Shown piece by piece: positions 57-51,272 of a stretch of 64,000 nt of DNA (position 1 is the first letter of the stretch; each line of letters begins with the position of its first letter). Both the position numbers and the translations under genes were made by a program. Under the pieces are notes generated by a model. It had not been told where the DNA came from, ran no database searches, and saw only the letters and a list, made by a program, of their open reading frames with translations. Source of the DNA: Prorocentrum cordatum (taxonomy: Eukaryota); the NCBI GenBank assembly GCA_963575745.1, contig CAUYUJ010000115.1, forward strand, positions 496,001 to 560,000, given 5' to 3'.

Positions 57-1588
57 GCGAATACTGTCCTCGCTCAGGCGGGGCCTCCGTGGAGCGGTGG
101 GAGGAACACGAAACCTGATAAATAATATGGTTTGCGAATACTGTCCTCGCTCAGGCGGGGCCTCCCTGGAGCGGTGGGAGGGGCACGAAACCGGATAAAT
201 AATATGGTTTGCGAATACTGTCCTCGCTCAGGCGGGGCCTCCCTGGAGCGGTGGGAGGGGCACGAAACCTGATACATAATATGGTTTGCGAATACTGTCC
301 TCGCTCTGGCGGGGCCTCCCTCGAGCGGTGGGAGGGGCACGAAACCTGATAAATAAGATGGTTTGCGAATACTGTCCTCGCTCAGGCGGGGCCTCCCTGG
401 AGCGGTGGGAGGGGCACGAAACCTGATAAATAATACTGTTTGCGAATACTGTCCTCGCTCCGGCGGGGCCTCCCTGGAGGGGTGGGATGGGCACGAAACC
501 TGATAAATAATATGGTTTGCGAATACTGTCCTCGCTCAGGCGGGGCCTCCCTGGAGCGGTGGGATGGGCTCGAAACCTGAAACATAATATGGTTTGCGAA
601 TACTGTCCTCGCTCTGGCGGGGCCTCCCTGGAGCGGTGGGAGGGGCACGAGACCTGATAAATAAGATTGCTTGCGAATACTGTCTTCGCTCAGGCGGGGC
701 CTCCCTGGAGCGGTGGGAGGGGCACGAAACCTGATACATAATATGGTTTGCGAATGCTGTCCTCGCTCAGGCGGGGCCTCCCTGGAGCGGTGGGAGGAAC
801 ACGAAACCTGATAAATAATATGGTTTGCGAATGCTGTCCTCGCTCTGGCGGGGCCTCCCTGGAGCGGTGGGAGGGGCACGAAACCTGATAAATAATATGG
901 TTTGCGAATACTGTCCTCGCTCAGGCGAATCGGTCCTCGCTCAGGCGGGGCCTCCCTGGAGCGGTGGGAGGGGCACGAAACCTGATAAATAATATGGTTT
1001 GCGAATACTGTCCTCGCTCAGGCGGGGCCTCCCTGGAGCGGTGGGAGGGGCACGAAACCTGATAAATAATATGGTTTGCGAATACTGTCCTCGCTCTGGC
1101 GGGGCCTCCCTGGAGCGGTGGGAGGGGCACGAAACCTGATAAATAATATGGTTTGCGAATACTGTCCTCGCTCAGGCGGGGCCTCCCTGGAGCGGTGGGA
1201 GGGGCACGAAACCTGATAAATAATATGGTTTGCGAATACTGTCCTCGCTCTGGCGGGGCCTCCCTGGAGGGTGGGAGGGGCACGAAACCTGATAAATAAT
1301 ATGGTTTGCGAATACTGTCCTCGCTCAGGCGGGGCCTCCCTGGAGCGGTGGGAGGGGCACGAAACCTGATAAATAATATGGTTTGCGAATACTGTCCTCG
1401 CTCTGGCGGGGCCTCCCTGGAGGGGTGGGAGGGGCACGAAACCTGATAAATAATATGGTTTGCGAATACTGTCCTCGCTCTGGCGGGGCCTCCCTGGAGC
1501 GGTGGGAGGGGCACGAAACCTGATAAATAATATGGTTTGCGAATGCTGTCCTCGCTCAGGCGGGGCCTCCCTGGAGCGGTGGGAGGGG
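57..1588. repeat. 77-bp tandem satellite, about 20 copies
   Basis: Unit GCGAATACTGTCCTCGCTCAGGCGGGGCCTCCCTGGAGCGGTGGGAGGGGCACGAAACCTGATAAATAATATGGTTT recurs at 57, 134, 211, 288 ... 1539 with few substitutions; a ~20-bp partial duplication near 921-940 shifts the register. Confidence 0.97.
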
Positions 1589-1635
1589 TGTATGTATGGT
1601 TTCCTACGTGCTTGCCTGACCCCGGTGGTCTGCAA

Positions 1636-1896
1636 TAGTATGGTATGGTATTGTATGGTATGGTATAGTATGGTATGGTAGGAGCAGGAAGAGGGAGCGA
1701 GCGTGGTAGGTAGGTATTGTATGGTATTATATGGTGTGGTAGGTATGCGGTGATGGTGTATGTATGGTTTCCTAGGTGTGGTATGGTAGGTACGGTGGTC
1801 TGCTATATTATGGTATGGTATGGTATTGTATGGTATGGTATGGTAGGAGTAGGAAGAGGGAGCGGTATTGTATGGTATGGTATAGTATGGTATGGT
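1636..1896. repeat. (ATGGT)n pentanucleotide microsatellite, degenerate
   Basis: Repeated TATGG/ATGGT units directly following the 77-bp satellite. Confidence 0.9.
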
Positions 1897-2466
1897 AGGA
1901 ATAGGAGGAGGGAGCGGGAGGTGGGAAGGTGGGAAGGTGGGAAGATGGGAAGGAGAGGGTGTCCTGGGAAAACAAGAACCCCACTCAGGATGTGGGGAAT
2001 AATATCCCCGCTGTCCCCCTGGAGCCCCGAATTTTCAGATCCCCTGGTGGCAACTATCGTGGGCGCAGGCTTTGCTGGTGTTGCGCGTGCGGTCGTCCCG
2101 CTTGAACTCCCAAGAGCTGGAAGACTGAAAAACGGTCGCCAGAGGCTGATTCCGGTAGCGCAAGACACAGACGGGTTCTCGGGAATTTGACCTGTCGGGT
2201 TGGGGGGGAGGAATCTGTGGAAAGGTCCCACAGGTGCCTGCTGAGGAGTGGGGTATGGATCCGAGGCTACGTAGAGTTCAGGCGTATCCACCGCCTGGGA
2301 AACCGTCCCAGGGAGGGAGTGGAAATGTGTTTGTTCAGTTCCCCCCGGCCCCCGGAGTACCCACATCCAATGCTTCTTGGGCTCCTCGGGCATGTCCACG
2401 CCTCGCGTTGAAGGGAGGGGCTGTGGCGGAGGCGACGGGGAAGACGAGGAAAGCACATGGTATTGA

Positions 2467-2501
<35 letters not shown>

Positions 2502-2837
2502 GGCGTTTTTGCTCCATAGCCTTCTTTTGTGTGTGTTGGGTTCCGGGGATGCCGTGGTGCACCCCGAGCAGGGCCCGCAGGCTTGGCGGGGGGGGGGGGG
2601 GGCGGTTCACAACGGCTGACGTGTCCCAGAAGGGGGTGCGGCCCTCGAAGACCAGCGCACCCGCTCTGCCACCCACAAATGTCTGAGCCTGGGGGCGCTC
2701 CCCTGCGTGCTGCAGGCATGGTAACGGGTGTAGCATAGGGTTCTCATGGCATTTGATCGAGGCTGGTTGATCGTGGAGCTCTTCTGGTGAGTGTGTGTTT
2801 CGGTTGCGCGTGTGCTGGGGAGTCGCTCCCCTACCAG

Positions 2838-3102
2838 GAACCACTTGCAGGACTTGGCCAATAATTTCGACCCGAGACAGGTTTTCATCACGCGAGGCAT
2901 CAGCCGAATGGGCTTTCAGTCGAAGAAGTTGCTGGAGGCATACTTCGCACGGTATGGCAAGGTCGTGCGCGTCATGGTACCTTATTCGAAGTCCAAGCGT
3001 TTGGCGCGCAATCTCCATCCACAAGCCCGAGTTCATCCGGGTTCATTGGCCTTCGTTGTCATGGCTGACGCCGAGTGCGTTGGTCGGATCCTTGCAGCCA
3101 CG
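2838..3102 (+). CDS. Exon of an RRM-like RNA-binding protein gene (N-terminal exons not resolved)
   Basis: Follows acceptor CTACCAG (2837). Translates NHLQDLANNFDPRQVFITRGISRMGFQSKKLLEAYFARYGKVVRVMVPYS...PGSLAFVVMADAECVGRILA, with an RNP2-like VFI, a YFARYGKV helix/strand and an RNP1-like LAFVVM. The GC donor is at 3097 or 3103 (both in frame). Confidence 0.8.
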
Positions 3103-3807
3103 GCCTCAGCAGCACGGCGCGCGCGCGCGCGGTGCCGAGACCGCAGGCGTGGCAGATGCCGTCTAACCCAACGCACGTTTATGTGGGGGCGCGTGCAGCT
3201 CCGGGTGAATGCCGCCGATCGGCACGTTCTCGTCCTCATCCTCCTTCCCTGCTCCTGATTGGTGACGCCTCTCCTGATCGTTCTCCTCCTCATTCTCCCT
3301 TTTCCTGTCGCACCCCAGGTGTTTCTCCTGGATTCTTCCCTACTATTTGTGGCTCCGAAACTTGACATCTGCCGCAGCTTCCAGGATGGATGGAGGTCCG
3401 TTGCCAACATAGACCTTGCTTTGACGCCGCGCACCTCCGTCTGAGAAGCCTGCAGCAGCTCCAGTGCTGGAGGGCGGGCGTTTTCAAGACGGAGCTCTCG
3501 CCCTCGGGCCGCGCACGTTTGTCCTACAAGTTTTCAGTGGCTTTCATGGTTGAGGACGGGCCGTCTTCACACATGGATCTCTCGACTGCCGCGCAGGTTT
3601 GTCTCACGGGGCTGCAGTCGCTCAGATGATGCATGCTTTTTTTTCGACTGGGGCCCCCGCTTCCGGGCCCCGCACGCTTGTCTTACATGTCTAGAACGGG
3701 TGCAGGGGTGGTAGGCGGTTCCTGTTCGAAATTGGGCCTTACGCTTCAGACTTCTAAGTATTCACAGACCTGGAGTTTGACCAGATGCAACATCTGCACG
3801 GATGCCT

Positions 3808-3979
3808 CGGGCGTTCACTAATGGGGGGGCGATATGTGGGGGGTAAGAAAGGTGCACCTTTCGTGCACCTTTCGTACCCCGTCGGGGCCCTAGGGGGCTC
3901 GTTTAGGGCCCCTCTAGGGCCCCTTTCGTGCAACCCTCGACGCCCCCCAATGTATCGCCCCCCCATGACCGAACGCCCG
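3808..3979. mobile_element. MITE-like element, family A
   Basis: Imperfect ~36-bp TIRs CGGGCGTTCACTAATGGGGGGGCGATA ... TATCGCCCCCCCATGACCGAACGCCCG; related copy at 14403-14579. Confidence 0.75.
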
Positions 3980-4173
3980 GATGAAGGGCGTGTTCTTTCT
4001 TCAACCGTTGGCGTTCGATCGGGGTGTCTCCAAAACAAGAGCGGGAGTTTTGGAGCAGATGCAGCAGCTGCACGGATGCAGGGCGGCTGTTTTTCCTTGA
4101 GATGTCGTCATTGTTCGGGGCGTTTCGACGCTCCTTGCCAGAAGTGTCAAGCCTTGACGCTTCTCGTGTTCTT

Positions 4174-4332
4174 AAGTCGGGCCTTTCCCTCTGCAGGAGG
4201 AATGTTCAAAAGTAGTATGACAAAAAATAGTCTGGGAATTATGGTTGGGGTATGTTTGAGCAATTTGGGGGTATTTGTTTGACTAATTTTACTTTTCGTC
4301 CAGAATCCGCCTGTAGGGGGACATGCCCGACC
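4174..4332. mobile_element. MITE-like element, family B
   Basis: TIRs AAGTCGGGCCTTTCCCTCTGCAGG ... CCTGTAGGGGGACATGCCCGAC around an AT-rich core; diverged copy at 31355-31497. Confidence 0.65.
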
Positions 4333-4479
4333 GACTCGTATTCCCACCAGCCCATCCAGCAACAGACGCGGGTTTGTGAAAGGATTCAGGGGGAAGTAGG
4401 CGACGACGATGACGGCGACGACAGGAGTGAGGCCGTGGCAGATCGTTCGCAGTTGGAGCGTCTGGGCCTCGTGGCGCCA

Positions 4480-5183
4480 TGTTGGAGGCCTCTTGGTGCC
4501 CTCAGGGAGAAGACCACAGTGTGGTCTTCTCGCGGGGCCAACTTGGGGCACTCTCGGGACCCTCCTGGCGCCTCTCGAAGGCTGTGGAGGCTTCCCTGGA
4601 AGCCATCGATCACACGAAGAGAGCGCCGTCAAGTTGCGTCCCCCCCGCTGGGGCCTTACCCTGATCCTCTTGGGGCACTGCTGGAGCGTTCTTTCTTGGG
4701 GCGGCCTTGGGTGCTCGTGGTGCCGTCTTTGGTTTCTATCGGTTCTCGATTGGGGCCGCCTTGAGCCATCTTGCAGCCGTCGCGAGGCTTTCAGAGCTCA
4801 TCGGAAGCGAAACGGCGAGACGGCAAACAACATTGGCAAGCACACGGGTTCTGAATGATTTGGGCCTTTTGGGAATTTCAGCGGGAGGCACGGAGGGCAC
4901 TTCGGAGCCGCCTTGGCGCGGTCTTGGGACCTCTGCGAGGCATAGCGGAAGCTACACTGAACCATGTTTGGATACCTTGAGTGATCTTGGGGCACATTTT
5001 GGACTCTTTTGGGTCCACTTTGGAGCCATCTCGGGCCCTTTTGGACGCTGCAGCCCCTCGCGAAACGCCCCCTCCAGTCCCACTGGGAGTGGGGAGGGGG
5101 AGGGGGAACCCCCTACGCGAATGGGAAGAAGGGGTTTAGCGGAACGAACTCGTCAGCCAACTCATGCCTGATGGTTGGTGGGA
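4480..5183 (+). repeat. Dispersed GGGCC(G)TCTTGG-rich repeat family, copy 1
   Basis: Degenerate TCTTGGG units; module CATCGGAAGCGAAACGGCGAGA shared with 43937-43958; G-rich hairpin end GGGGGAACCCCC...GGTTGGTGGGA. Confidence 0.65.
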
Positions 5184-6527
5184 CTTGTGCACACACTGCC
5201 CACGTGGGGGCGGTCCCATTTCAACACGGGGATCTCGCTGGATGCCTCGCTGGACTGCATGAGCCTACCTCTGCGCATTCCTCCTTCCTCGCTGGATGGG
5301 TGCTATGGAGTCGGTCCCCTTCCCAAGCTGGGCCGTCGCCTGCATGGCAGGTCCACGCGGGCGCTGGTCCCTCAAGGGGCGAGGGGAGAGGAAGGCTTGA
5401 AGGGACTTGTGGGGGGGGGGGGGGGCGGGAATCTGTTTCAGCATCGTTGATGCATTTGGGGGTTCTTTCTGGTCCTCTTTCGTCCTCTTCCCAGGGCCGA
5501 CCACAGCGCTGTCTCACTTCGTTCGGGCCCTTGTCTTGTTGTCCGTTTCGTTTTTTGTTGTTGTTTCTTTTCGTTGTCCGGGCTTGGTTGAAGTGCACCG
5601 TTTCGTCGTTCGTTCCCGTTTGGCACCGGCTTCGTTTTCAACGTTCGTGTTCAATGTTGGACCTTTGTCTTTGTTTGCTGTCAACACATTTGTTGACCAT
5701 CTTTGTGATTGGTCCTTGCTCGTCGATCCTTGGCCGAGGTTTGACTGTGCATCTTCGGGGGATCTTGCCTGTCCTACAAATGGCGGCCTTTTCTTCTACT
5801 TCGACGTGGGTTCGGCGCGGATTCGGCGTGTGCTCGGCGTGGATGCGACGCGGGCTCGACGTGGCTTCGACGCGGATCCGGCATGCTGGCCAGTGATTCG
5901 ATGCGGATTCGACTCGGACAGCGGCGTGAGGTGTGACAGACAACGCCGCCCGGAGACGCAGCATGAGTGACGATGCCCCCTCCCGAGCCAGTCCTCCTCG
6001 GGCCCTCGGCCCTCCCGGGCCCTGGTCAGGAACTCCGACTCTCTGACGCGTCGTTCCGCGGCGGTGCGCTCGGTCCAGAACTTGGGCTCAGCCTGCCGCG
6101 ATGCCGGTGCTGTCGATGCTCTCGTCCGGGGGACCTTCCTGTGGCCCACCTGTCGATGCCGGATCTGTTCGACCCCAGTTCGACCCCAGTTCGCTGCAAA
6201 TGAGTCGAGCTCGGCTCACGCTCGACGCGGCTTCGACGCAGCTTCGGCGCAGCTGCGACGCACGAGTGGCGCGAGTGTCTCTGGGAAGCTCCCCAGAAGG
6301 AGCCTCCGAGGTCCTCGCCCGCCGCGCTCCGGAGAGCGGCCCGCCAAGCCCGCCCCAGTGTCCAGGCCTTCAGCGCTCCGAGCTCGCCCCGCCCCCCCGC
6401 CCCGCGGGGCACAGCGGCGCTTCGCCGACGACGACGACGACGACGACGACGCTCGCTGGCCGAGCGCTCGGGCCCGTGCGGTCGACGGGCGGCGGGCGGC
6501 GCGCGCCGCAGCCACACGGCTCGCGAG

Positions 6528-6586
6528 GCCAGCGCGGAGCACGGGGTCGAGGGCTACGCCGTGCGCGTGGAGAAGTTCCAGCAGAT
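6528..6586 (+). CDS. Next exon of the RRM-like gene (last helix-strand of the RRM)
   Basis: Acceptor AG at 6526-6527; encodes ASAEHGVEGYAVRVEKFQQM in frame with the previous exon, completing the RRM fold; GT donor at 6587. Confidence 0.72.
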
Positions 6587-6595
6587 GTCGGGCAC

Positions 6596-6770
6596 TCAGT
6601 TCCGACGAAGGCATCGATGCACCACCACCGTGCCAGGCCGGGGCCATCCTGGGACCCAGGATGGTGTCTAGACCCTCCTGGCCTCGGCCAGGATGGCGTA
6701 GACACCATGCCAGGGCCAGGATGGCCTTGGCCTGGCACGGTGGTGGTGTATAGATGCCTTCTGCGTACTA
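6596..6770. mobile_element. Intronic MITE
   Basis: TIRs GAAGGCATCGATGCACCACCACCGTGCCAGGCC ... GGCCTGGCACGGTGGTGGTGTATAGATGCCTTC. Confidence 0.8.
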
Positions 6771-6972
6771 GTGGGCCCCGGAAACGGCAGGGCCGTTTTT
6801 CCACGGTCTCCGACGGCAAAAAAGCACGGCGACTAGAAACGGCAAAGCAACGGCTCCCGGATTGGAGCCAGAGCCTGAGCCGGAATAGCAAAAACTAAAT
6901 GGCGACGGAACCGGCGGCAGAAGCGGCAAAACGGAGCCGTCGAAAACACGGCCCTGTCGTTTCCAGGGCCCG
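6769..6972. mobile_element. Intronic MITE abutting the previous one
   Basis: TIRs GTGGGCCCCGGAAACGGCAGGGCCGTTTTT ... AAAACACGGCCCTGTCGTTTCCAGGGCCCGC; the same right end recurs at ~33046-33070. Confidence 0.8.
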
Positions 6973-6977
6973 CGGAG

Positions 6978-7110
6978 GTCGGGCATGCTCTCAGACCCGC
7001 AGTCCGAGAGCGTGGAGCACGCCTGCGTGGGCCCCCGGGAGGCCGCCTCGGCGGCCCGGGGCTACGCCGTGCGCGTCGAGAGGTTCCAGCAGATGTCGGG
7101 CATGCTCTCG
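6978..7110 (+). CDS. Exon of the RRM-like gene (internally repeated segment)
   Basis: Acceptor AG at 6976-6977. Splicing gives FQQMSGMLSD, identical to the copy later in this exon (GYAVRVERFQQMSGMLSD). Probable GA donor at 7111. Confidence 0.72.
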
Positions 7111-7137
7111 GACCGTTCGGATGCAACTCCTGGGGAG

Positions 7138-7325
7138 GTCAGATCCCAGACACGATCCCAGACATGGGCGGGAGGTTTTGCTATTTTCGGCCCCTGGGGG
7201 CCCTTGCCGGGCCCCAGGACTGTCAAAAAACGATTCAGGATGAGAAACCGGTTCTGGGGAAAGTGTCGGGACTTCCGGGGACGCCGTATTGAAAAATCAG
7301 GACGTCGCATGTCTGGGATTCTGAC
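7138..7325. mobile_element. Intronic MITE
   Basis: TIRs GTCAGATCCCAGACA ... TGTCTGGGATTCTGAC. Confidence 0.65.
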
Positions 7326-7490
7326 TTTGCCCTGGTCCGAACTCTGGCTCAATCGGACTTGATCCCGCTCCATCTCGCTTAATCCCGCGTCAGCCCGATC
7401 CGCGGCCGAAGCCGGCGTAGCAGCCCCCCAATGAGGCTAAATTCTCCCGAATCTTTACTACGAAGACCTCCCAGCAGTTGCCTCCTACAG

Positions 7491-7598
7491 GACCAGCAGT
7501 CCGACGGCGTCGAGCATGTCTTCGTGGGCTCCCCGGAGTCCGCCTCGGCGGCCAGGGGCAGAGGGGGTGAGCATCCCGACCTGGCCGCTCCGGTCTGA
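7491..7598 (+). CDS. Probable terminal exon of the RRM-like gene
   Basis: Acceptor CCTACAG (7490); DQQSDGVEHVFVGSPESASAARGRGGEHPDLAAPV then TGA at 7596-7598; parallels DPQSESVEHACVGPREAASAARG in the previous exon. Confidence 0.65.
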   Translation, partial: DQQSDGVEHVFVGSPESASAARGRGGEHPDLAAPV

Positions 7599-8511
7599 TA
7601 TCGATCTCGGACGTCTCTTGGCATCGCTCGGGCGTGTGCATTTCTTCTCGGCGTGGACCATCGAAGTTGTGTGTGCAAAGTCAGAACCTTGAATTAGCGA
7701 ATTAGTCATCAACCTTGCCCTTTTCCTGGTATGATCAACCGAAGAGCTTCCTTTCTCTCCGCTTCTGCTCCTCGGTGCGCCGCTCGCGCTCCCCTCCCGC
7801 TCTTATCCTTCGCCCGCCTTTTCTATCCTTAGCCACTCCCTGCTCCCATTATCCGTCATTCGGTTGGCCCCAGAGGTGGCCCTCGAGGCTTCGGTATCAG
7901 ACCTCCCCTCCTCTCTTCTTCGTCCTCCCTCCCCTGCATTACTGTCCAGACCGCTGCGGCACAAACACAAAAACGAACACAAACAAGCACAAACAAACAC
8001 AAACATTACAAACAAGTACTGGACGGAACATCAAAACCAAAAGACACAACAACCACACACACGCACACAAACCTAAATTATGGCTTCGAATTTGCACACA
8101 CACACAATCGAAGAGCATCTTGGGGCACCTTGCGACAAACAATCATGCACGAAATCGAAACATGCATGGGGAATAGTGTTCCGAGCGATGGCCAGGGCCC
8201 GATTCGATTCGAGGCCGTTCCCCCGACGATCCGACCCAGACCCCCTCGCGTCGTGAAGCGATCACGACGGAGAGTTTTTCGCTGTTTCCGGCCTTTGGCT
8301 GCCCTCGCCTGGTATCGGGGCCGTCGGACAACGATTCGGGAAACAGAAGCTGAGCGCTGGGGAGGGGTCTGGATTTTTTGGGGCACTGGTGCATGACGCA
8401 ACATTCAGTGCCTTCCATGAAACTTCAGTCGGGCGTACTTTGCCCAGACCTTGAAAGTTGGAAGGGGGCAGGCTTCTTAGAGGCACCTGCTTCTTAGAAG
8501 GCGCGGGCCTT

Positions 8512-8733
8512 GTCTACAGATTCAGGGCCAGCGCCTTCTTCCTTCTAAACAGATTATCCCCTCCCCCTACAGTCAACGCGCCTAGTAAGGACGCGCGCCT
8601 TCATCTAGGGTAATTACTTTTGTGTCCTTGCCTCTGAGGCCCGTCCTTTGCCGTTTTCATGGGTCGCCCGCCGCTCAAAAAATCCCGTCTTCGGCCTCCA
8701 AGGGTTTTGCGTCCTTGCGTGTGCCGTCGTTCG

Positions 8734-8774
<41 letters not shown>

Positions 8775-8850
8775 CTTTCGGCGAGGACCATCGGAGAGCA
8801 TCCTGGAGCATCGAGCCACAAATACAACACGGCACAGAAACATGCACTGG
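8512..8850 (+). repeat. ~340-bp dispersed repeat (second copy 10391-10700)
   Basis: Near-identical CTACAGAT(T/C)CAGGGCCAGCG...GTCAACGCGCCTAGTAAGGACGCGCGCCTTCATCTAGGGTA...GCTCAAAAAATCCCGTCTTCGGCCTCCA in both copies; copy 1 carries a long poly-T at 8737-8774. Confidence 0.9.
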
Positions 8851-10730
8851 AAATGGACGTCCGAGCGACAGCAAGTAACTATCGGGCCGGGCGAAAGGGG
8901 GGAAAGCGGGGGTTACGAAATCTGTTGCATCCAGCTGGTTTCGGCCCCGCCGCCCGGCCCATTCCGCGATACATGGGCGCCTCCCGGCGCCAGGAGGCGC
9001 TGGAAAAATCAGCTACGTGAGCTGATTCTCCACCCTGCCCTTTGCTACCCCCCCCTTTCGTTCCCCCCGCAAGTACGACCCGTCCTCAATACACGTTTTG
9101 AGTGCACCCCCTCGTGAGCGCCGCCAACCCATGGTGCCCTGACGTGCCCACCCTGTCCCGCATACGGAGACCTCACACCTCCTCCCCTGGCGGGGGAGGA
9201 CGTGCTACGCCCGCCAGAGGACACAGGAGGAGGAGCAGGACAGGGAGAGGAGGAGGAGGGGGGGGAGGAGGAGGTGGCGGAGGAGGAGGAGGAGGAGGGG
9301 GAGGAGGGGGAGGAGGGGGAGGAGGAGGAGGAGGAGGAGGAGGAGGAGGAGGAGGAGGAGGAGGAGGTGGAGGAGGAGGACAGGTCCCCAGAACCCGTCG
9401 AGTCAGGAAACAATCAACACTTATTGCTTATTGCTTGGTTTGCTATTTTCGGCTTTTGGGGGGCCCTTAACAGGCCTCGGGACCGTCAAGAACGGCTCAG
9501 GATGACACACACCTGTCATGGGGAATGGGTCGAGACTCGGGGGCCAACGTTATGAACGAAAAAACAGCGCCAGGAGTGAGAGGGGTGAGGGGCGAATCGG
9601 CGATCGAGGCCCAGCAGCCGACGGGGCGGAGGAGGATTAGGACAGCCAGTCAGACCGAGGTATAAGATGGAGGTCGGTTCGGGGAGGGTGCCGTAATGTT
9701 CTTCGTGTTTGTTGGATGTTCTTGCGCATCTTGGGGGAGTGTACCCTCGAGTGATCTTGTGGTTTGGGGTGTTTTGGCCGGCGGAGGTCGTTATTTTCTT
9801 GAAGGGTACTCTCCTGTCCTAGGTCCCACCGTAGTAGGACAAGAGGGGGAGTAGGGATCGGCATGAACGAAATAGGTACGGCCAGAACGGCTACGATGCC
9901 CAACAACAGTTCCTGTTCATTGTGAGCAGGACTCTCTGTCGGCGTCGCTGCGGACGGTGTCTGTTTGAGACAGAAGGCCGCCTAGGAGGAGGAGGAGGAG
10001 GAGGAGGAGGAGGAGGAGGAGGAGGAGGAGGAGGAGGAGGAGGAGGGGGGGTGGAGTGGTTGGTCGGGGGTGGGGTGGAGGGGGGAAGGGGAGGCGAGGA
10101 GGAGGGGGAGGAGGAGGATATGGAGGAGGGGGTGGAGGAGGAGGAGGGGGGGGAGGGGGAGGGGAAGGAGGAGGAGTAGGAGGAGGAGGAGATGCACCTT
10201 TGCGTCCCCCCAGGCGGGGTGCGCTCCCGCTGCCCGGCCCCCGGGCCTCGCTCGAAGGGCCGCCGCGCCGCTGGGCCCTGCGGCGGTCGGGCCGACCGCG
10301 GGGTGGAGATGTGCAGGCGCGGCTCTGCCTCTCGGGGGAGGGCCAGTGCTTCCGAGGAAGAGCATCATGCGATCGCAAACACGGCCTGGTCTACAGATCC
10401 AGGGCCAGCGCTTTCTTTCCTCCTAGGAAGATTCCCCCCTCCCCCTACTGTCAACGCGCCTAGTAAGGACGCGCGCCTTCATCTAGGGTACCTTTTGTGG
10501 TCTTGCCTCTGAGGCCCGTCCTTTGCCGTTTTCATGGGTCGCACGCCGCTCAAAAAATCCCGTCTTCGGCCTCCAAGAGTCTTGCGTCCTTACCTGTGGC
10601 GTCGCTCGGCCGTGTGTTTTCTTCTCTCGGAAAGGACCATCGAAGAGCATCTTGGATCATCGAGTCACAACAACAAAAAAACGCACAGAAACATGCACGG
10701 GAAATGTCAGGCGATCGCAAGCATATATTA

Positions 10731-44322: not shown

Positions 44323-45351
44323 TTTTTTAGAGTAGCTCAGCCACCATAGCGAGGCAGTCTTTGTGGAGGGACCTTCCGTGGTATCGCCCCTGCCCATGTT
44401 GTTGGTGAGTTGTTTGGGGCCCCGTCTGGAGTAAAGCTGTACTTGGCAGGGATTGGGTGCACCACACGCACTGCATGCGGTTGCACAGCACTCAAGCTCT
44501 GGTGTTGCAGCAGTTGCGGTTGTTTTGTCAGGCAGATGGTCAAGGGCCTCGGGCAATAATGTCCCAGGAGGAGGAATTCCAATCGCGGCGAATACTTGTC
44601 CAGGATTGTTTCAGGCTTGTGGCCCAAAGTCCTGAGCAAGACTGAGCAGGCCCATCGGGTTCGTAAGTGTGGGGATATCGCTTCGCGACTGGGGTCACTC
44701 ACTCACTCACTCCTTCTCCTACTACTCCTACTCTCCTCCTCGTTCTCCGCGCACCCTTCGAGTAGGGGAGCAACCACGGAACTGATTCACTCTAGAACTG
44801 GTTCGGTCCGCCGAATCTACGGAAAATAACATGATGCTCCGTAGATCAGTGGAGCATTCTATCACGTTTGTTGTAGATTCGGCGGATTTTTTTTTCTGGG
44901 GTAAATCACATTGGTGGTCGATCCCCTACTCGAGCCCTTTTCCTTCCTCTTTGGGGGACCCCTTGCTGCCAGTGACCCCCTCTCAGTCCCTGGTGGCGCG
45001 CAGAGGAGGTCAGGGGGGAGGGGTCAAGGATTCTTAGCAGGCGCGGGCCCTGCATCTGTAGGGAAGGCCCGCGCCTTCTGAGAAACGGGGGTGCTTCCGA
45101 GAAGTGGTCCTCTTCCTATTCCCCAGTGATCTGGCTCCTGCTCTCCGCGTGCTCCTTTTCCTGCTCCTCCTGCTCCTCCTCCTCCTCCTCCTCCTCCTCC
45201 TCCTCCTCCTCATCATCATCCTCATCCTCCTCCTCCTCCTCCTCCTCCTCCTCCCCTCTCCCCCTTCTCCTCCCCCCCCTCCCCCTCCTCCTCCCCCTCC
45301 TCCTCCTCCTCCTACTCCTCCTCCTTCTCCTCCTCCTCCTCCTCGTCCTCC

Positions 45352-45373
45352 TCCGTAGCCATTTTGGCTCAAG
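45352..45373 (+). other. Exact 22-nt dinoflagellate spliced leader at LINE 5' end
   Basis: TCCGTAGCCATTTTGGCTCAAG, a perfect match to the DinoSL consensus; followed by GG (not GT), with the ORF1 ATG ~120 bp downstream. Confidence 0.97.
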
Positions 45374-45494
45374 GGGCCTGCTCCTGAACTTCCCAACCTC
45401 GGTCCAAGCCTCGCAAGCGAGGAGCATCCTGCCTCCTTGGGGCGCTTAGGCTTGGCACATTCGGTCTGGGAACGACACCCCCCTTCCGCGCGCG

Positions 45495-46454
45495 ATGGCT
45501 GCCAACCAGGCCATCATCTCCGAGCTCAAGGCCGTCATGGAGACCACCATGCAGGGATTCCAAGCTAGCCTGCCAGAAGCTCTGGACTCGAAGCTCGGCG
45601 CCCTCAACATGGAGCTGACCACAGCGCAGGAGGAGACCAACGCCAAGCTCGGAGAGTTACAGATGGAGATGGAGTCCCAGCGCGAGAGGATCGACCAGCA
45701 GGCAGCTACAATTCGAACGCTGCAAGAGCAAGCAGAGCAAGCATCTACGACAGCGGGGTCAGTGGCATCTGGCGCCTCTGGCTTCACGGGCTCGACGAGA
45801 CGTGGTGCAGCAGGTGGCAGTAAGTTCAGGCGGGTTGGCACGGTCGAGGAGCCGGCTGACAAGTTAACCAAGTTCGTCGGTGGCTTCCCTAGGCCTTTGT
45901 TGGCCAAATTCAGAGAATCTCACTTCGAGAACCTGAAAACGGTGTACCCGCAGTACATCAGCGACGACGTCAACGGCTCCTTCCACCGCGTCGGGGTCAA
46001 CTACAAGATCACCTTCAAGAGCGAGACGGCTGCGGCAGACTTCCAGGACCAGTTCAATCGTGCAGGCCACATGTGGACGGACCCGAGGGACCACACCAAG
46101 CACCCGCTTCGCGTTCGAGGCGATCTCCCGATCGATGTTCGCAACCGGCGTCGTGCATTTTCGGCCATCTACACGGCTGTCAAGGATTTGCTATCGAGCT
46201 CGGCAAGGTGGAATCCATCATGCAGGCTTGGAGTGGATGGCTATGAGGGTGTTCTTCAGGTAAGCAATGATGAGGACTTGTGGGAGTTGGTCTTCGCTAA
46301 ACCTGCAGGCTTCAAAGATGGCAAAGAGATCTTCACGTTCGAGCCGAAGCAGACCGAGCTTTCGCAATGGAACATCACGGCAGAGCAGACCCATAACGTG
46401 ATCAATCAGGCGGAGGCTGAGGCTCGCAAGCTCGTGGAGGATGAGGATTTCTGA
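45495..46454 (+). CDS. LINE ORF1 protein (319 aa, N-terminal coiled coil)
   Basis: Intact ATG-to-stop ORF; heptad-like LGELQMEMESQRERIDQQAATIRTLQEQ; lies between the SL and the APE-RT ORF. Confidence 0.8.
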   Translation: MAANQAIISELKAVMETTMQGFQASLPEALDSKLGALNMELTTAQEETNAKLGELQMEMESQRERIDQQAATIRTLQEQAEQASTTAGSVASGASGFTGSTRRGAAGGSKFRRVGTVEEPADKLTKFVGGFPRPLLAKFRESHFENLKTVYPQYISDDVNGSFHRVGVNYKITFKSETAAADFQDQFNRAGHMWTDPRDHTKHPLRVRGDLPIDVRNRRRAFSAIYTAVKDLLSSSARWNPSCRLGVDGYEGVLQVSNDEDLWELVFAKPAGFKDGKEIFTFEPKQTELSQWNITAEQTHNVINQAEAEARKLVEDEDF

Positions 46455-46709
46455 CATGATAACACACGGGGACGTCCGAGAAGACGTAGAGTTTCACAAC
46501 GTTTGAGAGTTCGTGCTTCCTCTTCTTCTTCCTCCTCCTCTTCTGGTTCCTCGGCCTCATCGGGGAGTGGGCGAGCTTCGTCGAGTGGGCGACCTACAGG
46601 CGGGAGCTCCAGCTCTTCAGCTTCTTCGTCGAGCTCGCCAGTGGTAGGTGTGCGTTCTCTGCCTTTTTTTTTCCTGGTACTCGACTGGGGTTAGTGTCGT
46701 GGAATTGCC

Positions 46710-49700
46710 ATGCGCTTTTTGGAGATTTGGGAGGTGACCATAGGACTCAAGCGCACACGTATGCATGTGCCAAGGGGCTTCTCTCGAAGTATGATGTATG
46801 TGCTTTCCAGGAGACACGGGTGTTCAGGTGATTTGGGAACGCTCCAGAAAGAAGTTAAGTCGCACTCTCATTATGTGTTGTTTTGCTCTGCCGTGGGGGC
46901 TGGTGGAGTGGTGTTAAGTATCGCCAAGAAGTTGGCGACGAAGTTTTCGCATATAGTGCATCGTGTGCTCGTGCCTGGCCGTATCCATTGTCTGTCGTTC
47001 CTCTCCGACTTCGAATGTCTACAGGTGTTCAATATTCATATCGTTCCAGGTATCCCAGAAGCCCAGGTAAAACAACAGATGGACAAGATCAAACGCTACA
47101 TGCTCCCTCTCACCCCCTGCACCGTCGTCTTGATGGGCGATTTCAACTTTGCGGAGTCGGGCGAGGCCCGCCTGCAGACGCACGACGGAGTCGAGCGCGT
47201 GGGCGACAACCGGCTGTGCCTTGCTTTCCATCAACGGTTCCCTCGGTTTGCTGAACTCTCCCAACCTAGCTACACCTACCGACGTAAGACTGAGACGATG
47301 ATGACGCTATCCCGAATCGACCGTATATATACAAGTATGCCTACTGCTGACCTTTTAGACCTACATCCTCAATCAAATACTGTATGGCCTATTCAGAACC
47401 TCCGCAAGCCCTCTGACCATGCCCCGATCTTCCTCTCCCTGTTCCCGTTGACTGAGAAGCCAGACTTGCCGACTATACCTAGGTGGATTGCTACGCGCAG
47501 TAAGTTTCGAGAGATCCTGGACGAGGTCGTGGGCCCAGATGAGCTCCACGAGGCGCCCCCTGAGAGGCTCATGGAAATTAAAGACTGGTTCAGACACGCT
47601 GCCCACTGTACGCGGGTCCACGTTTTCTCTCAAGGTGCTTGCACCCCGTCCGAGAAAGTCTCATGCTGTACTAAGCTGCTAAGAGCATCCAGGGATGGTT
47701 TAACTGCTATCTGCAGGAAGGCTGTTCAGGCCTATGGCGAATTGGACAAGTACTTCAGCGTGGAATGCGACAGGTGGTTGGATATGCCTGGCTTTCACTT
47801 GTTGCCGAGTCGTCTGGTGCGTGAAGTTTTAGACCAATATGAGAGTAGCTCGTTCGAATCCGACCTCCCCCCCTGCGGTGATGGAAAAACACATTGAAAG
47901 AGTTCGACGACTTAGAGCTTGGCGAGCATCGAGGAGCCAGGTCACTCTCTCTGCAATTTTAGATCCGCGCGGTGCTGCCCATCGGGTGCCTGAAGAATGC
48001 GCGCGCACGCTTGCTGGCTATTGGTCAACTGTCTTTCAGTGTGGTGAGTCTGCTAACACGCATGCCAAGAAGTTCCTAGATCTGGTTCCCCAGCTCGAGC
48101 TAGATGACTACCAGTTCACCACCATAGACCACCAGAGATACCCCTGGGTTATCAGCCCCGATCAGTTTAGATACATCCTTTCGAAAAAAAGCATGACACG
48201 GCCCCTGGGCCCGACGGGCTCCCATACTCGGTGTGGACATGCGGGAATGAGGTGGTGGTGGAGGCCTTATATGCACATTACACACATGATGGCTGGTGGA
48301 GTGTTGCATGCATCATTTAACCACTGTAGGCTGGTAATTTTGCCGAAGGGGAATCTTCCCCAAGATGGGATGGCTGACAAACGACCCGAAGACACCCGGC
48401 CCTTGGCGCTCAGCAACACTGACCAGAAACTCATGGCCTCATGTCTGGCCTATCCGCTGAAAAATGTTGTTCGTGAAAAGCTCCACCCCGTCCAGCGCGG
48501 GTTTATTAATGGGAGGAACATGATCGATAATGTCCTGGAGTTTGAGGGGTCTACGGCCACATGGGGAGTTCTCTGCCAGGCAGACTCTGTTGGAGGCGCG
48601 ACCTTTGACCTGAAAGCTGCATTTCCGTCAATATATGTTTCGTGGCTCTTTGAGGTCCTGAAGGCTTTCAGGCTGCCACTTGCTGTTCGTGGTGCGCTTC
48701 GTGCTCTCTATCTGCAAGTGCATTGCTTTATTCAGTTCGGAGTGCACCTGTATCCAGGCTTTGAAGCACTTCGAGGCGTCCGCCAGGGGTGCCCACTGAG
48801 TGGGGAGAATCCAACTTCGGATTCCAATGGTGCCTTCAGCGTTTGCTGATGATATGTCGGCGATGGCTTTCAACATCTTCCGGGCTCTTCCAGGGATCCT
48901 AGCTCTGTTTCGTCTTTATGGGCCGTGCTCTGGATTGGTTCTCAACGTCAAGAAATGCAAGCTGATTTTATGTCAAAATCCTGGGGAGGAGGAGGTGTTG
49001 AGGAGGTTCCAGGAGATGGGGGTTGACGTCTCGGAATTTGGTATCGAGAATATGGTCATCACCTTTGGCATCCCTGTCGGTCGTGGTGCTCGTGCACACG
49101 CTTGGAGTATTGCCATCAGTAAAGTTCGAGCTCGCGCGAACGAGGTCAAGGCTCTAGGACTCGGGATGATTGAATCGGTCATAGCGTAACGTGGTCAAGG
49201 CTATAGGACTCGGGATGTTTGAATCGGTCATAGCGTACAACAGATACTGCGTCCCCATCCCCCCCCCCCCCCCCCCCACATCGCCCAGTGTCACATGATT
49301 ACGAAACTTGCCCTCGGGAATGAAAAAGAAAGCCATCAACTGCTCGCGGGAGCCCCGAGACATTCGTTTCCTCCGCAGGCGCTTTGTAGACTCCAGGAGC
49401 TCGGCAGCCCCGTGGAGTGCAGGAGTTTGAAGGTGGTCTCCTGGGCCACCATGCTGCGGGCGGCGATCCGCTCGGACTCTTTCTCGAGGTTGAGAGAAAA
49501 TTTCAAGATTTCCATCGACGGCGACTATTGTGATATCTCTTGCAAGTTTAATGCGTACTTGGTGGACTCGATTTTTCTACAATATGCATTGTCTGTATGA
49601 ATGGTTTTGTACGATAAAGAACATAGATGAGCTCCCTTATCCTAAGGTCCAGCCTGCAATAATCAAGATATTGAAACAGCGTGAAGACAATGTGATGTGT

Positions 49701-50258
49701 CCCATCGGTTCGGTGATTGCTCCTCGTCTGGTCAAGATGTTAGGCCCTCTTCATATTGATGCTGTTGATCGCACCATCCTCAGACTCAACCTCATGCAAA
49801 CTCGTAAACTCCCGTCGTTCATGATCGTCAGTGTCCTCAAATCGATCTTCAATGCGTGGAATACAGCACGTCGCTACCGACAACAACAATGCCCTTGTGT
49901 GTTTGGATGTGGAGCCCAGGCCTCAGATTCCATGGAGCACGATATGGTATGTCCTGTATTGGTCCCGAAAGTTAGACATCATCTTCATTATCTACCCCTG
50001 AGCTGGGGCACGAATGCACACAATGCCATTTTCTTTCATTTATATGACTTATCTTCCGAGCTTGCCGCTGCTGGTGCCCCCGCTCCTCCCTCGTCGGCCT
50101 CCCTCCTCTCGCATGCTGTTGCAATCGACGCGGTTCACTCAGTCTTTTCCGCCCTCAGGTGCCATCCCAGCTCTCCCCAAAGGTCCAGGGAGCTGCTGCT
50201 GGCCCGACTCCGCTGTGCGGCACGGCGATCCCGGCTCGTCCGTGCCCTCTGCCGCTAG
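46710..50258 (+). pseudogene. LINE ORF2 (APE endonuclease, RT, C-terminal zinc knuckle), frameshifted
   Basis: APE: VLMGDFN, LSRIDRIY, PSDHAPI. RT: ILPKG, RPLALSNTDQK, QRGFINGR, DLKAAFPSI, GVRQGCPLSG, AFADD. C-terminus: CVFGC...DSMEHDMVC. Split over at least five ORFs. Confidence 0.92.
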
Positions 50259-51272
50259 GCGCTTCCTGTTTTTGTGCGTCTCGTCGTTTGCGTGTCCCCT
50301 TTCCGCCCCTTCTTCCTGCTCTCGGGCTCCGCCCTAGGCTCTGTGGGTGCAGGTCTCTGGAGGCAGCGTTGGGCCCCGTTAGTGTCGGCGCGGCGGTCGA
50401 CATTGACGTGTCCTCTCAGGGGTGCCACTCCTCCTCCTCGTCCTCCTCCCCCTCCCTCCGCCTCCTCCCTTTTCCTCCTCCTCCTCCTCCTCCTCCTCCT
50501 CCTCCTCCTCCTCCTCCTCCTCCTCCTCCTCCTCACCCCCCTCCTCCTTCTCTCCCCCCTACCCCCTTTTGCGCGTGGCCGACGGCCGCCCTCGGCCCAG
50601 CTGCGAACAGAGGACGGGCGCCCGCCGCGGTCCGGCGCCGGTGCCGGCGCCGCCGCGGGGCCGCAGCAGAGCCGGGCCCTCGCGCTCCCCCTTTGGCTCC
50701 TCCTCTGCTCCCCCGCCGTCCTCCCTCCTCCTCCCACGCCTTCCTCCCTCCCTCTCTCCCTCACTGCCTCCCTCCCCCCTCCTCCTACTCCTTTTTCCTC
50801 CTCCTGCTCCTCCTCTCCTCCTCCCCTCCTCCTCCTCCTCCTCCTCCTCCTCCTCCTCCTCCTCCTCCTCCTCCTCCTCCTCCTCCTCCTCTTCCCATGG
50901 CGCATAACACAACCGAAGGACTGTCATAGCACAAAGAGTCGGCTGCCGATTTCGGTCCACGGTGCTTCAGGGATATCCTTCTTCAACATGGGTGGAGTCG
51001 ACTGACGCGTCTGCTGAAAAGACGTCCTATCCCTAATGTGTTTGGTCCTCCTAACTTAGGCCCCCTCCCAAAGGATAGGGATGCTTTCATTGTTTTCACC
51101 CTCCTCCTCCGTACAATGTCTAAATACGACTGCTACCCTTCTCTTTCCCCAGATGCTGTCCGAGCGAGGACCCCCCCTCTTCCGCATATTGCCTCTTGAC
51201 GCTCAGGATTTCAGACATTCCTCAGACAGTGTCTGCATTTTGAGGTTTTTTTGTTTGTGTTGTGAAGCACCT

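What the first reader, a model, noticed from the sequence alone, without database searches (positions are those of the whole stretch)
45352..50428. Full-length LINE whose 5' end is an exact dinoflagellate spliced leader
Seen: a perfect TCCGTAGCCATTTTGGCTCAAG is the first non-microsatellite sequence of an L1/Tx1-like element, ~120 bp before an intact ORF1. Established: this leader is added to dinoflagellate mRNAs by trans-splicing, and relict SLs mark retroposed mRNAs. Inference: the LINE transcript is itself SL-trans-spliced, or carries the SL as its own 5' end, and is copied back to its first nucleotide. The element may therefore need no internal promoter or 5' ribozyme, being released from host read-through transcripts by trans-splicing onto the SL's terminal AG.
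Basis: partly seen in the sequence, partly recalled or inferred. Interest (0 to 1): 0.9.

Follow-up and report, generated by a model that had tools for sequence, protein, structure and literature searches.

The report
Dinoflagellate LINE starting with spliced leader
A jumping gene (LINE) in a dinoflagellate genome begins exactly with the 22-base leader that this group of algae splices onto its messenger RNAs, which indicates that it was copied back into the DNA from a fully processed message.

Summary
An exact 22-nt DinoSL lies at 45352-45373. It is the only match in the window and appeared in 0 of 100 shuffles. It is the first sequence of a 5,077-bp APE+RT LINE.

An 18-bp duplication (21 bp with the ambiguous TCC) of the interrupted (TCC)n target abuts both ends (45334-45351 and 50429-50446). 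The leader therefore lies inside the inserted cDNA. It is not part of an SL RNA gene: no GT donor follows it and Rfam finds nothing.

ORF1 (319 aa) is intact. ORF2 has at least 5 frame breaks, a 49-bp tandem duplication and a poly-C run, so this copy is dead. A DNA run holds many copies 90-99% alike, some with the breaks absent.

The 5' junctions of other copies of this family could not be recovered. However, two unrelated LINEs in other dinoflagellate-like contigs (L197, L253) also start with an exact DinoSL, 61 and 93 nt before ORF1. L253 sits in a (GA)n repeat in the same way.

Best reading: trans-spliced LINE mRNA was copied to its 5' end by target-primed reverse transcription into microsatellites. 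The "no promoter needed" idea remains untested. My literature searches found no explicit description of this.

The parts
45135..45351 (.). Upstream (TCC)n / CTCCTGCTCCTC-type microsatellite; 5' half of the insertion target
   Evidence: TRF rows 45135-45354 and 45159-45354; sequence
45334..45351 (+). Left target-site duplication TCCTCCTCCTCGTCCTCC. It extends to 45354 (21 bp) if the leader's first TCC is counted.
   Evidence: The identical 18-mer directly abuts both element ends. The 18-mer occurs 4 times in the window on both strands together, and 2 of those flank the element.
45352..45373 (+). [quoted passage not shown]
45374..45494 (+). 121-nt 5' UTR. It starts GGGCC, so there is no GT donor and no stacked relict leader.
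   Evidence: (definition of a stacked relict)
45495..46454 (+). ORF1, 319 aa, open. It has a long N-terminal helix (residues 2-87), then a low-confidence linker and alpha/beta domains. There is no Pfam family. One relative was found (P0001, 67% identity over the C-terminal half).
46490..46828 (+). ORF2 segment 1: start of the endonuclease (..SWN..FQETR motif read by eye), ending in a stop; a different frame from the next segment
   Evidence: frame map; no Pfam hit on this 113-aa piece alone
46695..47894 (+). ORF2 segment 2: apurinic-type endonuclease (Exo_endo_phos, E 4.8e-4, 20.4 bits, below the Pfam cut-off of 24.5) plus linker
47833..48846 (+). ORF2 segment 3: reverse transcriptase, N-terminal part (RVT_1 E 2.9e-12, 47.2 bits). 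Best solved relatives are human LINE-1 ORF2p (E 5e-6). The best database relative is a Prorocentrum cordatum RT protein (38% identity).
48800..49186 (+). ORF2 segment 4: continuation of RT with an FADD motif, in another frame
49139..49278 (+). Copy-specific damage: a 49-bp tandem duplication (49139-49237) and a poly-C run (49258-49278). One contig of run X1 replaces 49189-49269 (81 nt) with 21 other letters.
   Evidence: tables 5 and 5c
49223..50255 (+). ORF2 C-terminal segments (49223-49597 and 49494-50255, two frames), including a Cys/His cluster CPCVFGC..H..C at about 49890-49955
   Evidence: no Pfam family
50256..50428 (+). 3' UTR ending ...GGGGTGCCAC, with no poly(A) tail
50429..50446 (+). 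Right target-site duplication TCCTCCTCCTCGTCCTCC (to 50449 with the next TCC)
50429..50552 (.). Downstream (TCC)n microsatellite; 3' half of the insertion target
   Evidence: TRF row 50428-50552

Best explanation
The interval 45352-50428 is one dead copy of a multicopy dinoflagellate LINE with ORF1 and an endonuclease-reverse transcriptase ORF2. Its RNA template was a mature messenger that already carried the 22-nt spliced leader.

The element's machinery nicked a (TCC)n microsatellite and reverse-transcribed the RNA to its first nucleotides. Joining probably used the leader's TCC as microhomology with the target. An 18-21-bp target duplication was left behind.

Shown: the leader lies inside the duplicated-target boundaries; the LINE domains are present; the family has many copies; the same head occurs on two unrelated LINEs elsewhere.

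Inferred: the leader was added by trans-splicing rather than transcribed from a leader already encoded in the parent copy. Also inferred: microsatellites are the preferred target of this machinery.
For: - Exact leader, unique in the window, 0 of 100 shuffles.
- An identical 18-mer (21 with TCC), with a diagnostic G interruption, abuts both ends.
- No GT donor after CAAG, and no Rfam family in the window or at relaxed threshold around the site.
- RVT_1 2.9e-12, Exo_endo_phos 4.8e-4, ORF1 upstream.
- Run X1 contigs cover 30 of 30 bins at mostly 90-99% identity (identity classes 66/552/659/42). Indels at 47867 and 49572 and a replacement of 49189-49269 remove three of this copy's breaks.
- Independent cases:
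  - L197: SL, 61 nt, ORF1 of 558 aa, then ORF2 with Exo_endo_phos_2 1.1e-9 and RVT_1 4.2e-10.
  - L253: (GA)n, SL, 93 nt, ORF1 with a RanBP zinc ribbon, then an uninterrupted 2,536-aa ORF2 with APE, RT and RNase H, then ...AAAAAA and (GA)n.
  - The three RTs show no BLAST similarity to one another.
- Of 13 SL sites with at least 3 kb downstream, 2 head APE+RT LINEs.
Against: - Only this one 5' junction of the family was seen. In run X1 the junction could not be resolved; 8 contigs diverge just after 45401-45404 for unknown reasons.
- The first 3 nt of the leader are ambiguous with the repeat.
- No RNA evidence was available.
- The 3' end has no poly(A), unlike L253 and L148, which have short A runs, so the way reverse transcription was primed is unclear.
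- L197 and L189 lie in clusters of relict leaders, so chimeric events do occur nearby.
- The preprint 10.1101/783902 (passages) reported no functional overlap between DinoSL-relict genes and RT genes.
Confidence: 0.82

Rival explanations
1. The leader is now a heritable, DNA-encoded 5' module of the element. Parent copies already encode it, and the RNA either starts at or near it (the leader's TTTT acting as a core promoter) or is re-spliced at the leader's own terminal AG. The leader is thus regenerated each cycle and no conventional internal promoter is needed.
For: - 3 of 3 SL-headed LINEs have a single leader with no stacked relict, whereas 14 of 127 metagenome SL sites show a relict CCATTTTGGCTCAAG directly after the leader.
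- The 5' UTRs are short: 61, 93 and 121 nt.
- Song et al. 2017 propose that TTT-rich motifs retained in DinoSL relicts act as promoter elements for retrogenes (PMC5585692, abstract and passages).
- In this copy a roughly 200-nt pyrimidine tract sits directly upstream of the leader's AGs.
Against: - Three cases are too few to set against an 11% background.
- A pyrimidine tract followed by GTAG would favour splicing at the internal AG, which would create a stacked relict, and none is seen.
- There is no transcript data.
- No recognisable host genes lie around the element, so read-through could not be judged (150 of the 241 flanking frames of 120 aa or more, all those of 150 aa or more, were scanned; no credible domain).
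Confidence: 0.3
2. Chimeric retrocopy. The reverse transcriptase switched template at the 5' end of a LINE RNA onto the 5' part of another leader-bearing mRNA, so the leader and part of the 121-nt '5' UTR' are not LINE sequence.
For: - Retrocopy fragments with relict leaders lie directly upstream of the SL-LINE in L197 and of the SL unit in L189.
- Contigs of run X1 diverge from this copy right after 45401-45404 (table 7).
Against: - Three unrelated LINEs all have the leader within 61-121 nt of the ORF1 start, with no foreign ORF fragment between.
- The whole unit is bounded by a single target duplication.
Confidence: 0.08
3. A LINE that inserts specifically into SL RNA genes (as SLACS, CZAR and NeSL-1 do in other SL-using lineages), so the leader is flanking target DNA.
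For: A leader sequence abuts a LINE end; such element families exist (recalled, not from a call).
Against: - The duplicated target is (TCC)n, and the complete leader lies inside it.
- No second leader part or SL intron lies at the 3' end.
- No other SL is in the window, and there is no SL RNA or 5S family hit.
Confidence: 0.02
4. Chance match or assembly artefact, for example cDNA reads merged into the genome assembly.
For: Only one independent DNA run holds the family, and it may be the source sample.
Against: - A 19-22-nt exact match; 0 of 100 shuffles.
- Genomic microsatellite on both sides with a duplicated interrupted motif.
- The same architecture occurs in unrelated assemblies.
Confidence: 0.02

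Closest known systems
DinoSL-relict retrogenes (recycled processed cDNAs) of dinoflagellates (Slamovits & Keeling 2008; Song et al. 2017, PMC5585692; PMC12014239)
   Same: A DNA-encoded spliced leader at the 5' boundary of an intron-less retrocopy marks reverse transcription of a mature mRNA. Song et al. even found the GO term 'RNA-dependent DNA replication' enriched among SL-tagged genes (passages).
   Different: Here the retrocopy is the retrotransposon itself, with a precise target-site duplication and the leader as nucleotide 1. It carries a single full leader rather than the usual truncated or stacked relict. The papers read (passages only) treat retrotransposons as the suspected machinery and not as SL-tagged units. 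One preprint calls retroposition and retrotransposition independent processes (10.1101/783902).
Symbiodiniaceae LINEs, including SymbioLINE-Dnmt (de Mendoza et al. 2018, PMC5890265)
   Same: Two-ORF LINEs with an endonuclease-RT ORF2 in Symbiodiniaceae; many diverged copies plus some young ones. L189 (an SL followed by a C5 DNA methylase ORF) may be of the Dnmt type.
   Different: ORF1 here has no methyltransferase. In that paper 'spliced leader' and 'DinoSL' occur 0 times and 'trans-splic' once, in a general remark.
Trypanosomatid L1Tc/ingi LINEs with the Pr77 internal promoter (PMC1874656, PMC8190864; search-listing abstracts)
   Same: LINEs living in a genome where mRNAs are SL trans-spliced.
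   Different: Those elements carry a 77-nt internal promoter and give abundant unspliced transcripts. The elements here begin with the host leader itself.
SL-gene-specific LINEs SLACS, CZAR and NeSL-1 (recalled, no call)
   Same: A LINE end next to spliced-leader sequence.
   Different: Those insert into SL RNA genes and split the leader between the two flanks. Here the whole leader is inside the insert and the target is a microsatellite.
Microsatellite-targeting LINEs of the Tx1/L1 and R1 groups (Kojima & Fujiwara; recalled, no call)
   Same: The same simple repeat lies on both flanks: (TCC)n here, (GA)n in L253. This copy has no poly(A).
   Different: Target specificity of this family is unproven because only one junction was seen. 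Clade membership was not tested.
Dinoflagellate RNA viruses with a 5' DinoSL (Levin et al. 2017, as cited in PMC10235124)
   Same: A selfish genetic element whose genome or messenger starts with the host leader. L067 (a contig with RdRP_1 downstream of an SL, which lies at the contig's end) is an example seen here.
   Different: That is an RNA virus, not a retrotransposon. The origin of its leader (mimicry or splicing) is likewise unsettled.

Membership tests
Non-LTR (LINE) retrotransposon | Reverse transcriptase domain | tested here: met
   RVT_1 E 2.9e-12, 47.2 bits, above the 29.6 cut-off; FADD motif in the next segment
Non-LTR (LINE) retrotransposon | Apurinic-type endonuclease N-terminal to the RT | tested here: inconclusive
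   Exo_endo_phos E 4.8e-4, 20.4 bits, below the 24.5 cut-off. An SWN...FQET start is seen by eye in a neighbouring frame. Relatives of the RT carry PF03372.
Non-LTR (LINE) retrotransposon | Target-site duplication flanking the insert, no LTRs | tested here: met
   18-21-bp duplication abutting both ends; no other repeat of the element's sequence in the window beyond short low-complexity matches
Non-LTR (LINE) retrotransposon | 3' poly(A) or simple-repeat tail | tested here: inconclusive
   No A run. The element ends GCCAC and is followed by (TCC)n, which may be target or tail.
L1 clade (including the Tx1 group) | RT groups with L1-clade RTs in a phylogeny | not tested
   Only a proxy: best solved hits are human L1 ORF2p at E 5e-6, against R2 at 1.5e-3. 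No reference set was available for a tree.
L1 clade (including the Tx1 group) | ORF1 with coiled coil + RRM + C-terminal domain | tested here: inconclusive
   AF2 model has mean pLDDT 59.8 and a helix at 2-87. The top Foldseek hits are human L1 ORF1p trimer chains, but at E 0.026-0.13, which is not significant. No Pfam family.
DinoSL-tagged retrocopy | DNA-encoded DinoSL at the 5' boundary without the SL-RNA intron | tested here: met
   Exact 22-mer followed by GGGCC, not GT; no RNA family
DinoSL-tagged retrocopy | Stacked or truncated relict leaders from repeated cycles | tested here: not met
   No second match to the 15-nt relict at up to 2 mismatches. This feature is frequent in such retrocopies but is not required for membership.
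SL-gene-specific LINE (SLACS/CZAR/NeSL-1 type) | Insertion inside an SL RNA gene, with leader or gene sequence on both flanks | tested here: not met
   Flanks are (TCC)n, the whole leader is inside the duplication, and the window has a single SL
Microsatellite-specific LINE | All or most copies inserted in the same simple repeat | not testable with these tools
   Only one junction pair of this family could be read. No whole genome is held, and short contigs could not resolve the flanks.

The most novel reading that the evidence does not exclude
In dinoflagellates the host spliced leader is the regular, inherited 5' end of LINEs from several unrelated lineages. These elements do without a conventional internal promoter: they are cut out of read-through transcripts by trans-splicing, or they use the leader's TTTT box.

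The same machinery, with its liking for microsatellite targets, is what copies ordinary leader-bearing mRNAs into the genome. That would name the long-sought source of the thousands of dinoflagellate retrogenes.
Probability: 0.3. Interest if true: 0.8.

Novelty: new variant of a known kind. Interest (0 to 1): 0.6.

Why it matters
Dinoflagellate genomes hold thousands of leader-tagged retrogenes, yet the reviews read here still call the responsible reverse transcriptase unknown and lean towards LTR elements (PMC6050394, passages).

A LINE bounded by a target-site duplication and starting at nucleotide 1 of the leader shows three things:
- LINE messengers are processed like host mRNAs.
- They are copied full-length by target-primed reverse transcription.
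- They land in microsatellites.

The same signature, a simple repeat directly upstream of a genomic leader, occurs at 10 (strict) plus 6 (loose) of 117 leader sites from environmental contigs. In the first count it was 8 of 102 sites against 7 of 1,697 control windows. This gives a concrete, testable link between LINEs and retrogene formation.

It also offers a simple marker for full-length, recently mobilised LINE copies in these very large genomes.

Tried and rejected
- Whole-genome search of the source: none is held.
- Earlier notes of this scan: none by place, sequence or words.
- Second copy in the window: none.
- ORF1 relatives: only P0001, a 182-aa fragment lacking the 5' end. None with DNA in metagenome contigs, viral contigs or genome contigs.
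- 'Longer' search with the endonuclease piece: none.
- Sequencing runs: no RNA holder listed. One DNA holder (X1, share 0.38) may be the source sample. X2 and X3 matched only low-complexity parts.
- Read laying could not resolve the 5' junction. The contigs are short, 31 loose-end rows were not shown, and the first and last bins are inflated by repeat contigs.
- ORF1 structure: the model is too poor (pLDDT 59.8) for a fold assignment, and Foldseek gave no significant match.
- Window context: I scanned 150 of the 241 flanking frames of 120 aa or more, namely all those of 150 aa or more. They gave only weak low-complexity hits, so host-gene orientation could not be judged.
- SL scan of IMG/VR: 134 unique sites in 119 loci. 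Nearly all are AT-rich giant-virus contigs, with no tblastn hit to this LINE. Pfam on the 19 downstream frames of the GC-richer sites gave no RT or endonuclease.
- Literature: five searches and passages of 12 papers found no statement that LINEs begin with the DinoSL. Supplements, such as the retrogene lists of Song 2017 and Gonzalez-Pech 2021, were not opened and may list such cases.
Full report
**Observation.**
The 22-mer TCCGTAGCCATTTTGGCTCAAG is at 45352-45373 on the + strand. It is the only match in the window at up to 3 mismatches, and none of 100 dinucleotide shuffles gave a match. The 15-nt relict core at up to 2 mismatches also occurs only there.

Upstream lies about 220 bp of (TCC)n-type repeat, 45135-45354. 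The leader is followed by GGGCC, not by the GT of an SL-RNA intron. After 121 nt comes the ATG of an open 319-aa ORF1 at 45495-46454. Rfam finds nothing in the whole window at gathering scores. At E up to 1 around the site it finds only one chance-level microRNA hit.

**Boundaries.**
The 18-mer TCCTCCTCCTCGTCCTCC, with its G interruption, ends at 45351, directly before the leader. It starts again at 50429, directly after the last element bases ...GGGGTGCCAC. With the next TCC the identity is 21 bp.

The 18-mer occurs four times in the window on both strands together, and two of those flank the element. (TCC)n continues on both sides. This is a target-site duplication. The leader's first TCC is ambiguous between leader and target. 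There is no poly(A).

**The element.**
ORF1 has no Pfam family. It has one database relative, a 182-aa fragment 67% identical over the C-terminal half. A two-sequence AlphaFold model is poor (mean pLDDT 59.8) and shows a helix at 2-87. The top Foldseek hits are human L1 ORF1p chains, but they are not significant at E 0.026 and above.

ORF2 is in pieces:
- 46490-46828: endonuclease start, ending in a stop.
- 46695-47894: Exo_endo_phos, E 4.8e-4, below the Pfam cut-off.
- 47833-48846: RVT_1, E 2.9e-12.
- 48800-49186: contains FADD.
- 49223-49597 and 49494-50255: C-terminal part with a Cys/His cluster.
- Added damage: a 49-bp tandem duplication at 49139-49237 and a poly-C run.

The RT piece is closest to human L1 ORF2p among solved structures (E 5e-6, against 1.5e-3 for R2). 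In the protein collection its best match is a Prorocentrum cordatum RT protein (38% identity). It has 46 relatives in total, many carrying PF03372 as well. So the element is a dinoflagellate LINE, and L1-likeness is only hinted at.

**Family.**
No second copy is in the window. One DNA run (X1, possibly the source sample) holds 38% of the element's sampled words. Its contigs cover 30 of 30 bins, mostly at 90-99% identity, so many diverged copies exist.

Three of this copy's defects are absent from contigs of other copies: a 1-nt difference at 47867, another at 49572, and a replacement of 49189-49269. From the frame map, each would make the neighbouring frames continuous. The damage is therefore copy-specific.

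The 5' junction of other copies could not be read from these short contigs. Eight contigs run on unlike this copy just after 45401-45404, and I cannot explain that.

**Is an SL-headed LINE a one-off?**
I scanned public contigs for the exact leader.

*IMG/VR.* This gave 134 unique sites in 119 loci. Nearly all are AT-rich giant-virus contigs, and none has a LINE.

It gave 127 unique sites. All 95 downstream frames of 150 aa or more were scanned with Pfam.

L197 has the leader, then 61 nt, then an ORF1 of 558 aa, then an ORF2 with Exo_endo_phos_2 (1.1e-9) and RVT_1 (4.2e-10). The ORF2 runs off the contig.

*Genome contigs.* This gave 11 sites. L248, read whole as L253, is a 9,096-bp GC-rich contig inside a bacterial MAG. 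Its layout is:
- (GA)n at 1-115.
- The leader at 116-137.
- ORF1 from an ATG at 231, with a RanBP zinc ribbon (1.4e-7).
- An uninterrupted 2,536-aa frame at 1358-8965 with endonuclease (5e-9), RT (5.4e-11) and RNase H (1.3e-5).
- Then ...GGGTAAAAAA, and (GA)n again.

*Tally.* The three RTs share no BLAST similarity. Of the 13 sites with at least 3 kb downstream, 2 head APE+RT LINEs, and a third (L189) leads to a C5 DNA methylase ORF. None of the three LINEs has a stacked relict after the leader, whereas 14 of 127 metagenome sites do.

**Microsatellites.**
A perfect simple repeat lies directly upstream of 8 of 102 metagenome leader sites, against 7 of 1,697 control windows from the same contigs (Fisher p 4e-7). 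A recount that included the genome contigs found 10 strict and 6 loose cases among 117 sites.

L148 has (CA)n, the leader, an 806-aa frame with no known family...AAAAA, and (CA)n again 3.2 kb on. Insertion into simple repeats therefore marks leader-bearing retrocopies in general, the LINEs included.

**Interpretation.**
The best reading is that a mature, leader-bearing LINE messenger was reverse-transcribed to its 5' end and integrated by target-primed reverse transcription into (TCC)n.

- The SL-gene-specific-LINE model fails on the duplication.
- Chance and assembly artefact fail on the statistics and on the flanks.
- A template-switch chimera is not excluded, but it is unlikely given three unrelated LINEs with the leader 61-121 nt before ORF1.

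It remains open whether the encoded leader then serves the daughter copies, either as splice acceptor or through its TTTT motif as a promoter as Song et al. proposed for retrogenes (PMC5585692). There is no RNA evidence, and no recognisable genes lie around the element from which to judge read-through.

**Literature.**
I ran five full-text searches and read passages of 12 papers.

- Relict leaders as marks of retroposed mRNAs are well known.
- Song et al. 2017 saw the GO term 'RNA-dependent DNA replication' enriched among SL-tagged genes.
- The review PMC6050394 favours LTR elements as the machinery.
- Preprint 10.1101/783902 calls retroposition and retrotransposition independent.
- De Mendoza et al. 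2018 describe Symbiodinium LINEs without mentioning the leader.

I found no explicit description of LINEs that begin with the leader. Supplements were not read.

**Verdict.**
The core inference is supported. The promoter-free life cycle is untested. The finding follows from known biology, but it does not appear to be in print, and it is useful for the open question of what drives dinoflagellate retroposition.

Noticed in passing
IMG/VR loci L001-L119 (e.g. L013, L024, L054, L107), not in the window: The exact DinoSL occurs at 134 unique sites, mostly on AT-rich giant-virus MAG contigs. 127 of the 134 are preceded by A and by a conserved, very AT-rich motif (for example ...TTTTTAAATATAAATTTTA before the leader). 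Diverse gene starts follow, and some sites form short tandem relict arrays. Giant viruses, presumably of dinoflagellates, seem to encode the host leader at the start of many genes. The listing of one literature search showed no paper that plainly describes this.
   Followed up: partly
Metagenome and genome-contig loci L120-L250 (e.g. L144, L148, L165, L199, L210, L223, L232, L248, L249): Genomic DinoSL sites are often directly preceded by a microsatellite ((CA)n, (GT)n, (TA)n, (CAT)n, (TAC)n, (GA)n and others). The first count was 8 of 102 sites against 7 of 1,697 control windows; a recount gave 10 strict plus 6 loose of 117. L148 and L253 have the same repeat on both sides of the retrocopy, with a short A run before the 3' repeat.
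   Followed up: partly
L197 5455-5023 (minus strand) and L189 4530-4470 (minus strand): Degenerate or partial relict leaders lie 250-375 nt upstream of the full leader, so leader-bearing retrocopies sit head to tail in clusters.
   Followed up: no
L189 (SL at 4262-4241, minus strand; DNA_methylase at 1714-824): A full leader is followed about 2.5 kb downstream by a C5 cytosine methyltransferase ORF (E 2.7e-36). This may be a SymbioLINE-Dnmt-type element headed by the leader. The contig ends before any RT.
   Followed up: partly
L067 (IMG/VR contig of 5,319 bp): The SL lies at one end of the contig, and the strand that reads from it carries a viral RdRP_1 ORF (E 4.9e-7). This is a dinoflagellate RNA-virus-like sequence with a 5' leader, as reported for dinoRNAV.
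   Followed up: no
window 1-64000: The window is GC-rich (52-70%) and dense in CT/GA-rich simple repeats, with long open frames on both strands. None of the 150 frames of 150 aa or more outside the element gave a credible Pfam domain, so this is a gene-poor, repeat-rich region.
   Followed up: partly
L241 and L244 (long contigs labelled as bacterial MAGs): An exact 22-nt DinoSL lies inside contigs of 5.3 Mb and 209 kb filed as bacterial. Several short GC-rich leader-bearing contigs (L240, L246, L248, L249) are binned in bacterial MAGs. This looks like dinoflagellate contamination, or chimeric assembly in the long ones.
   Followed up: no
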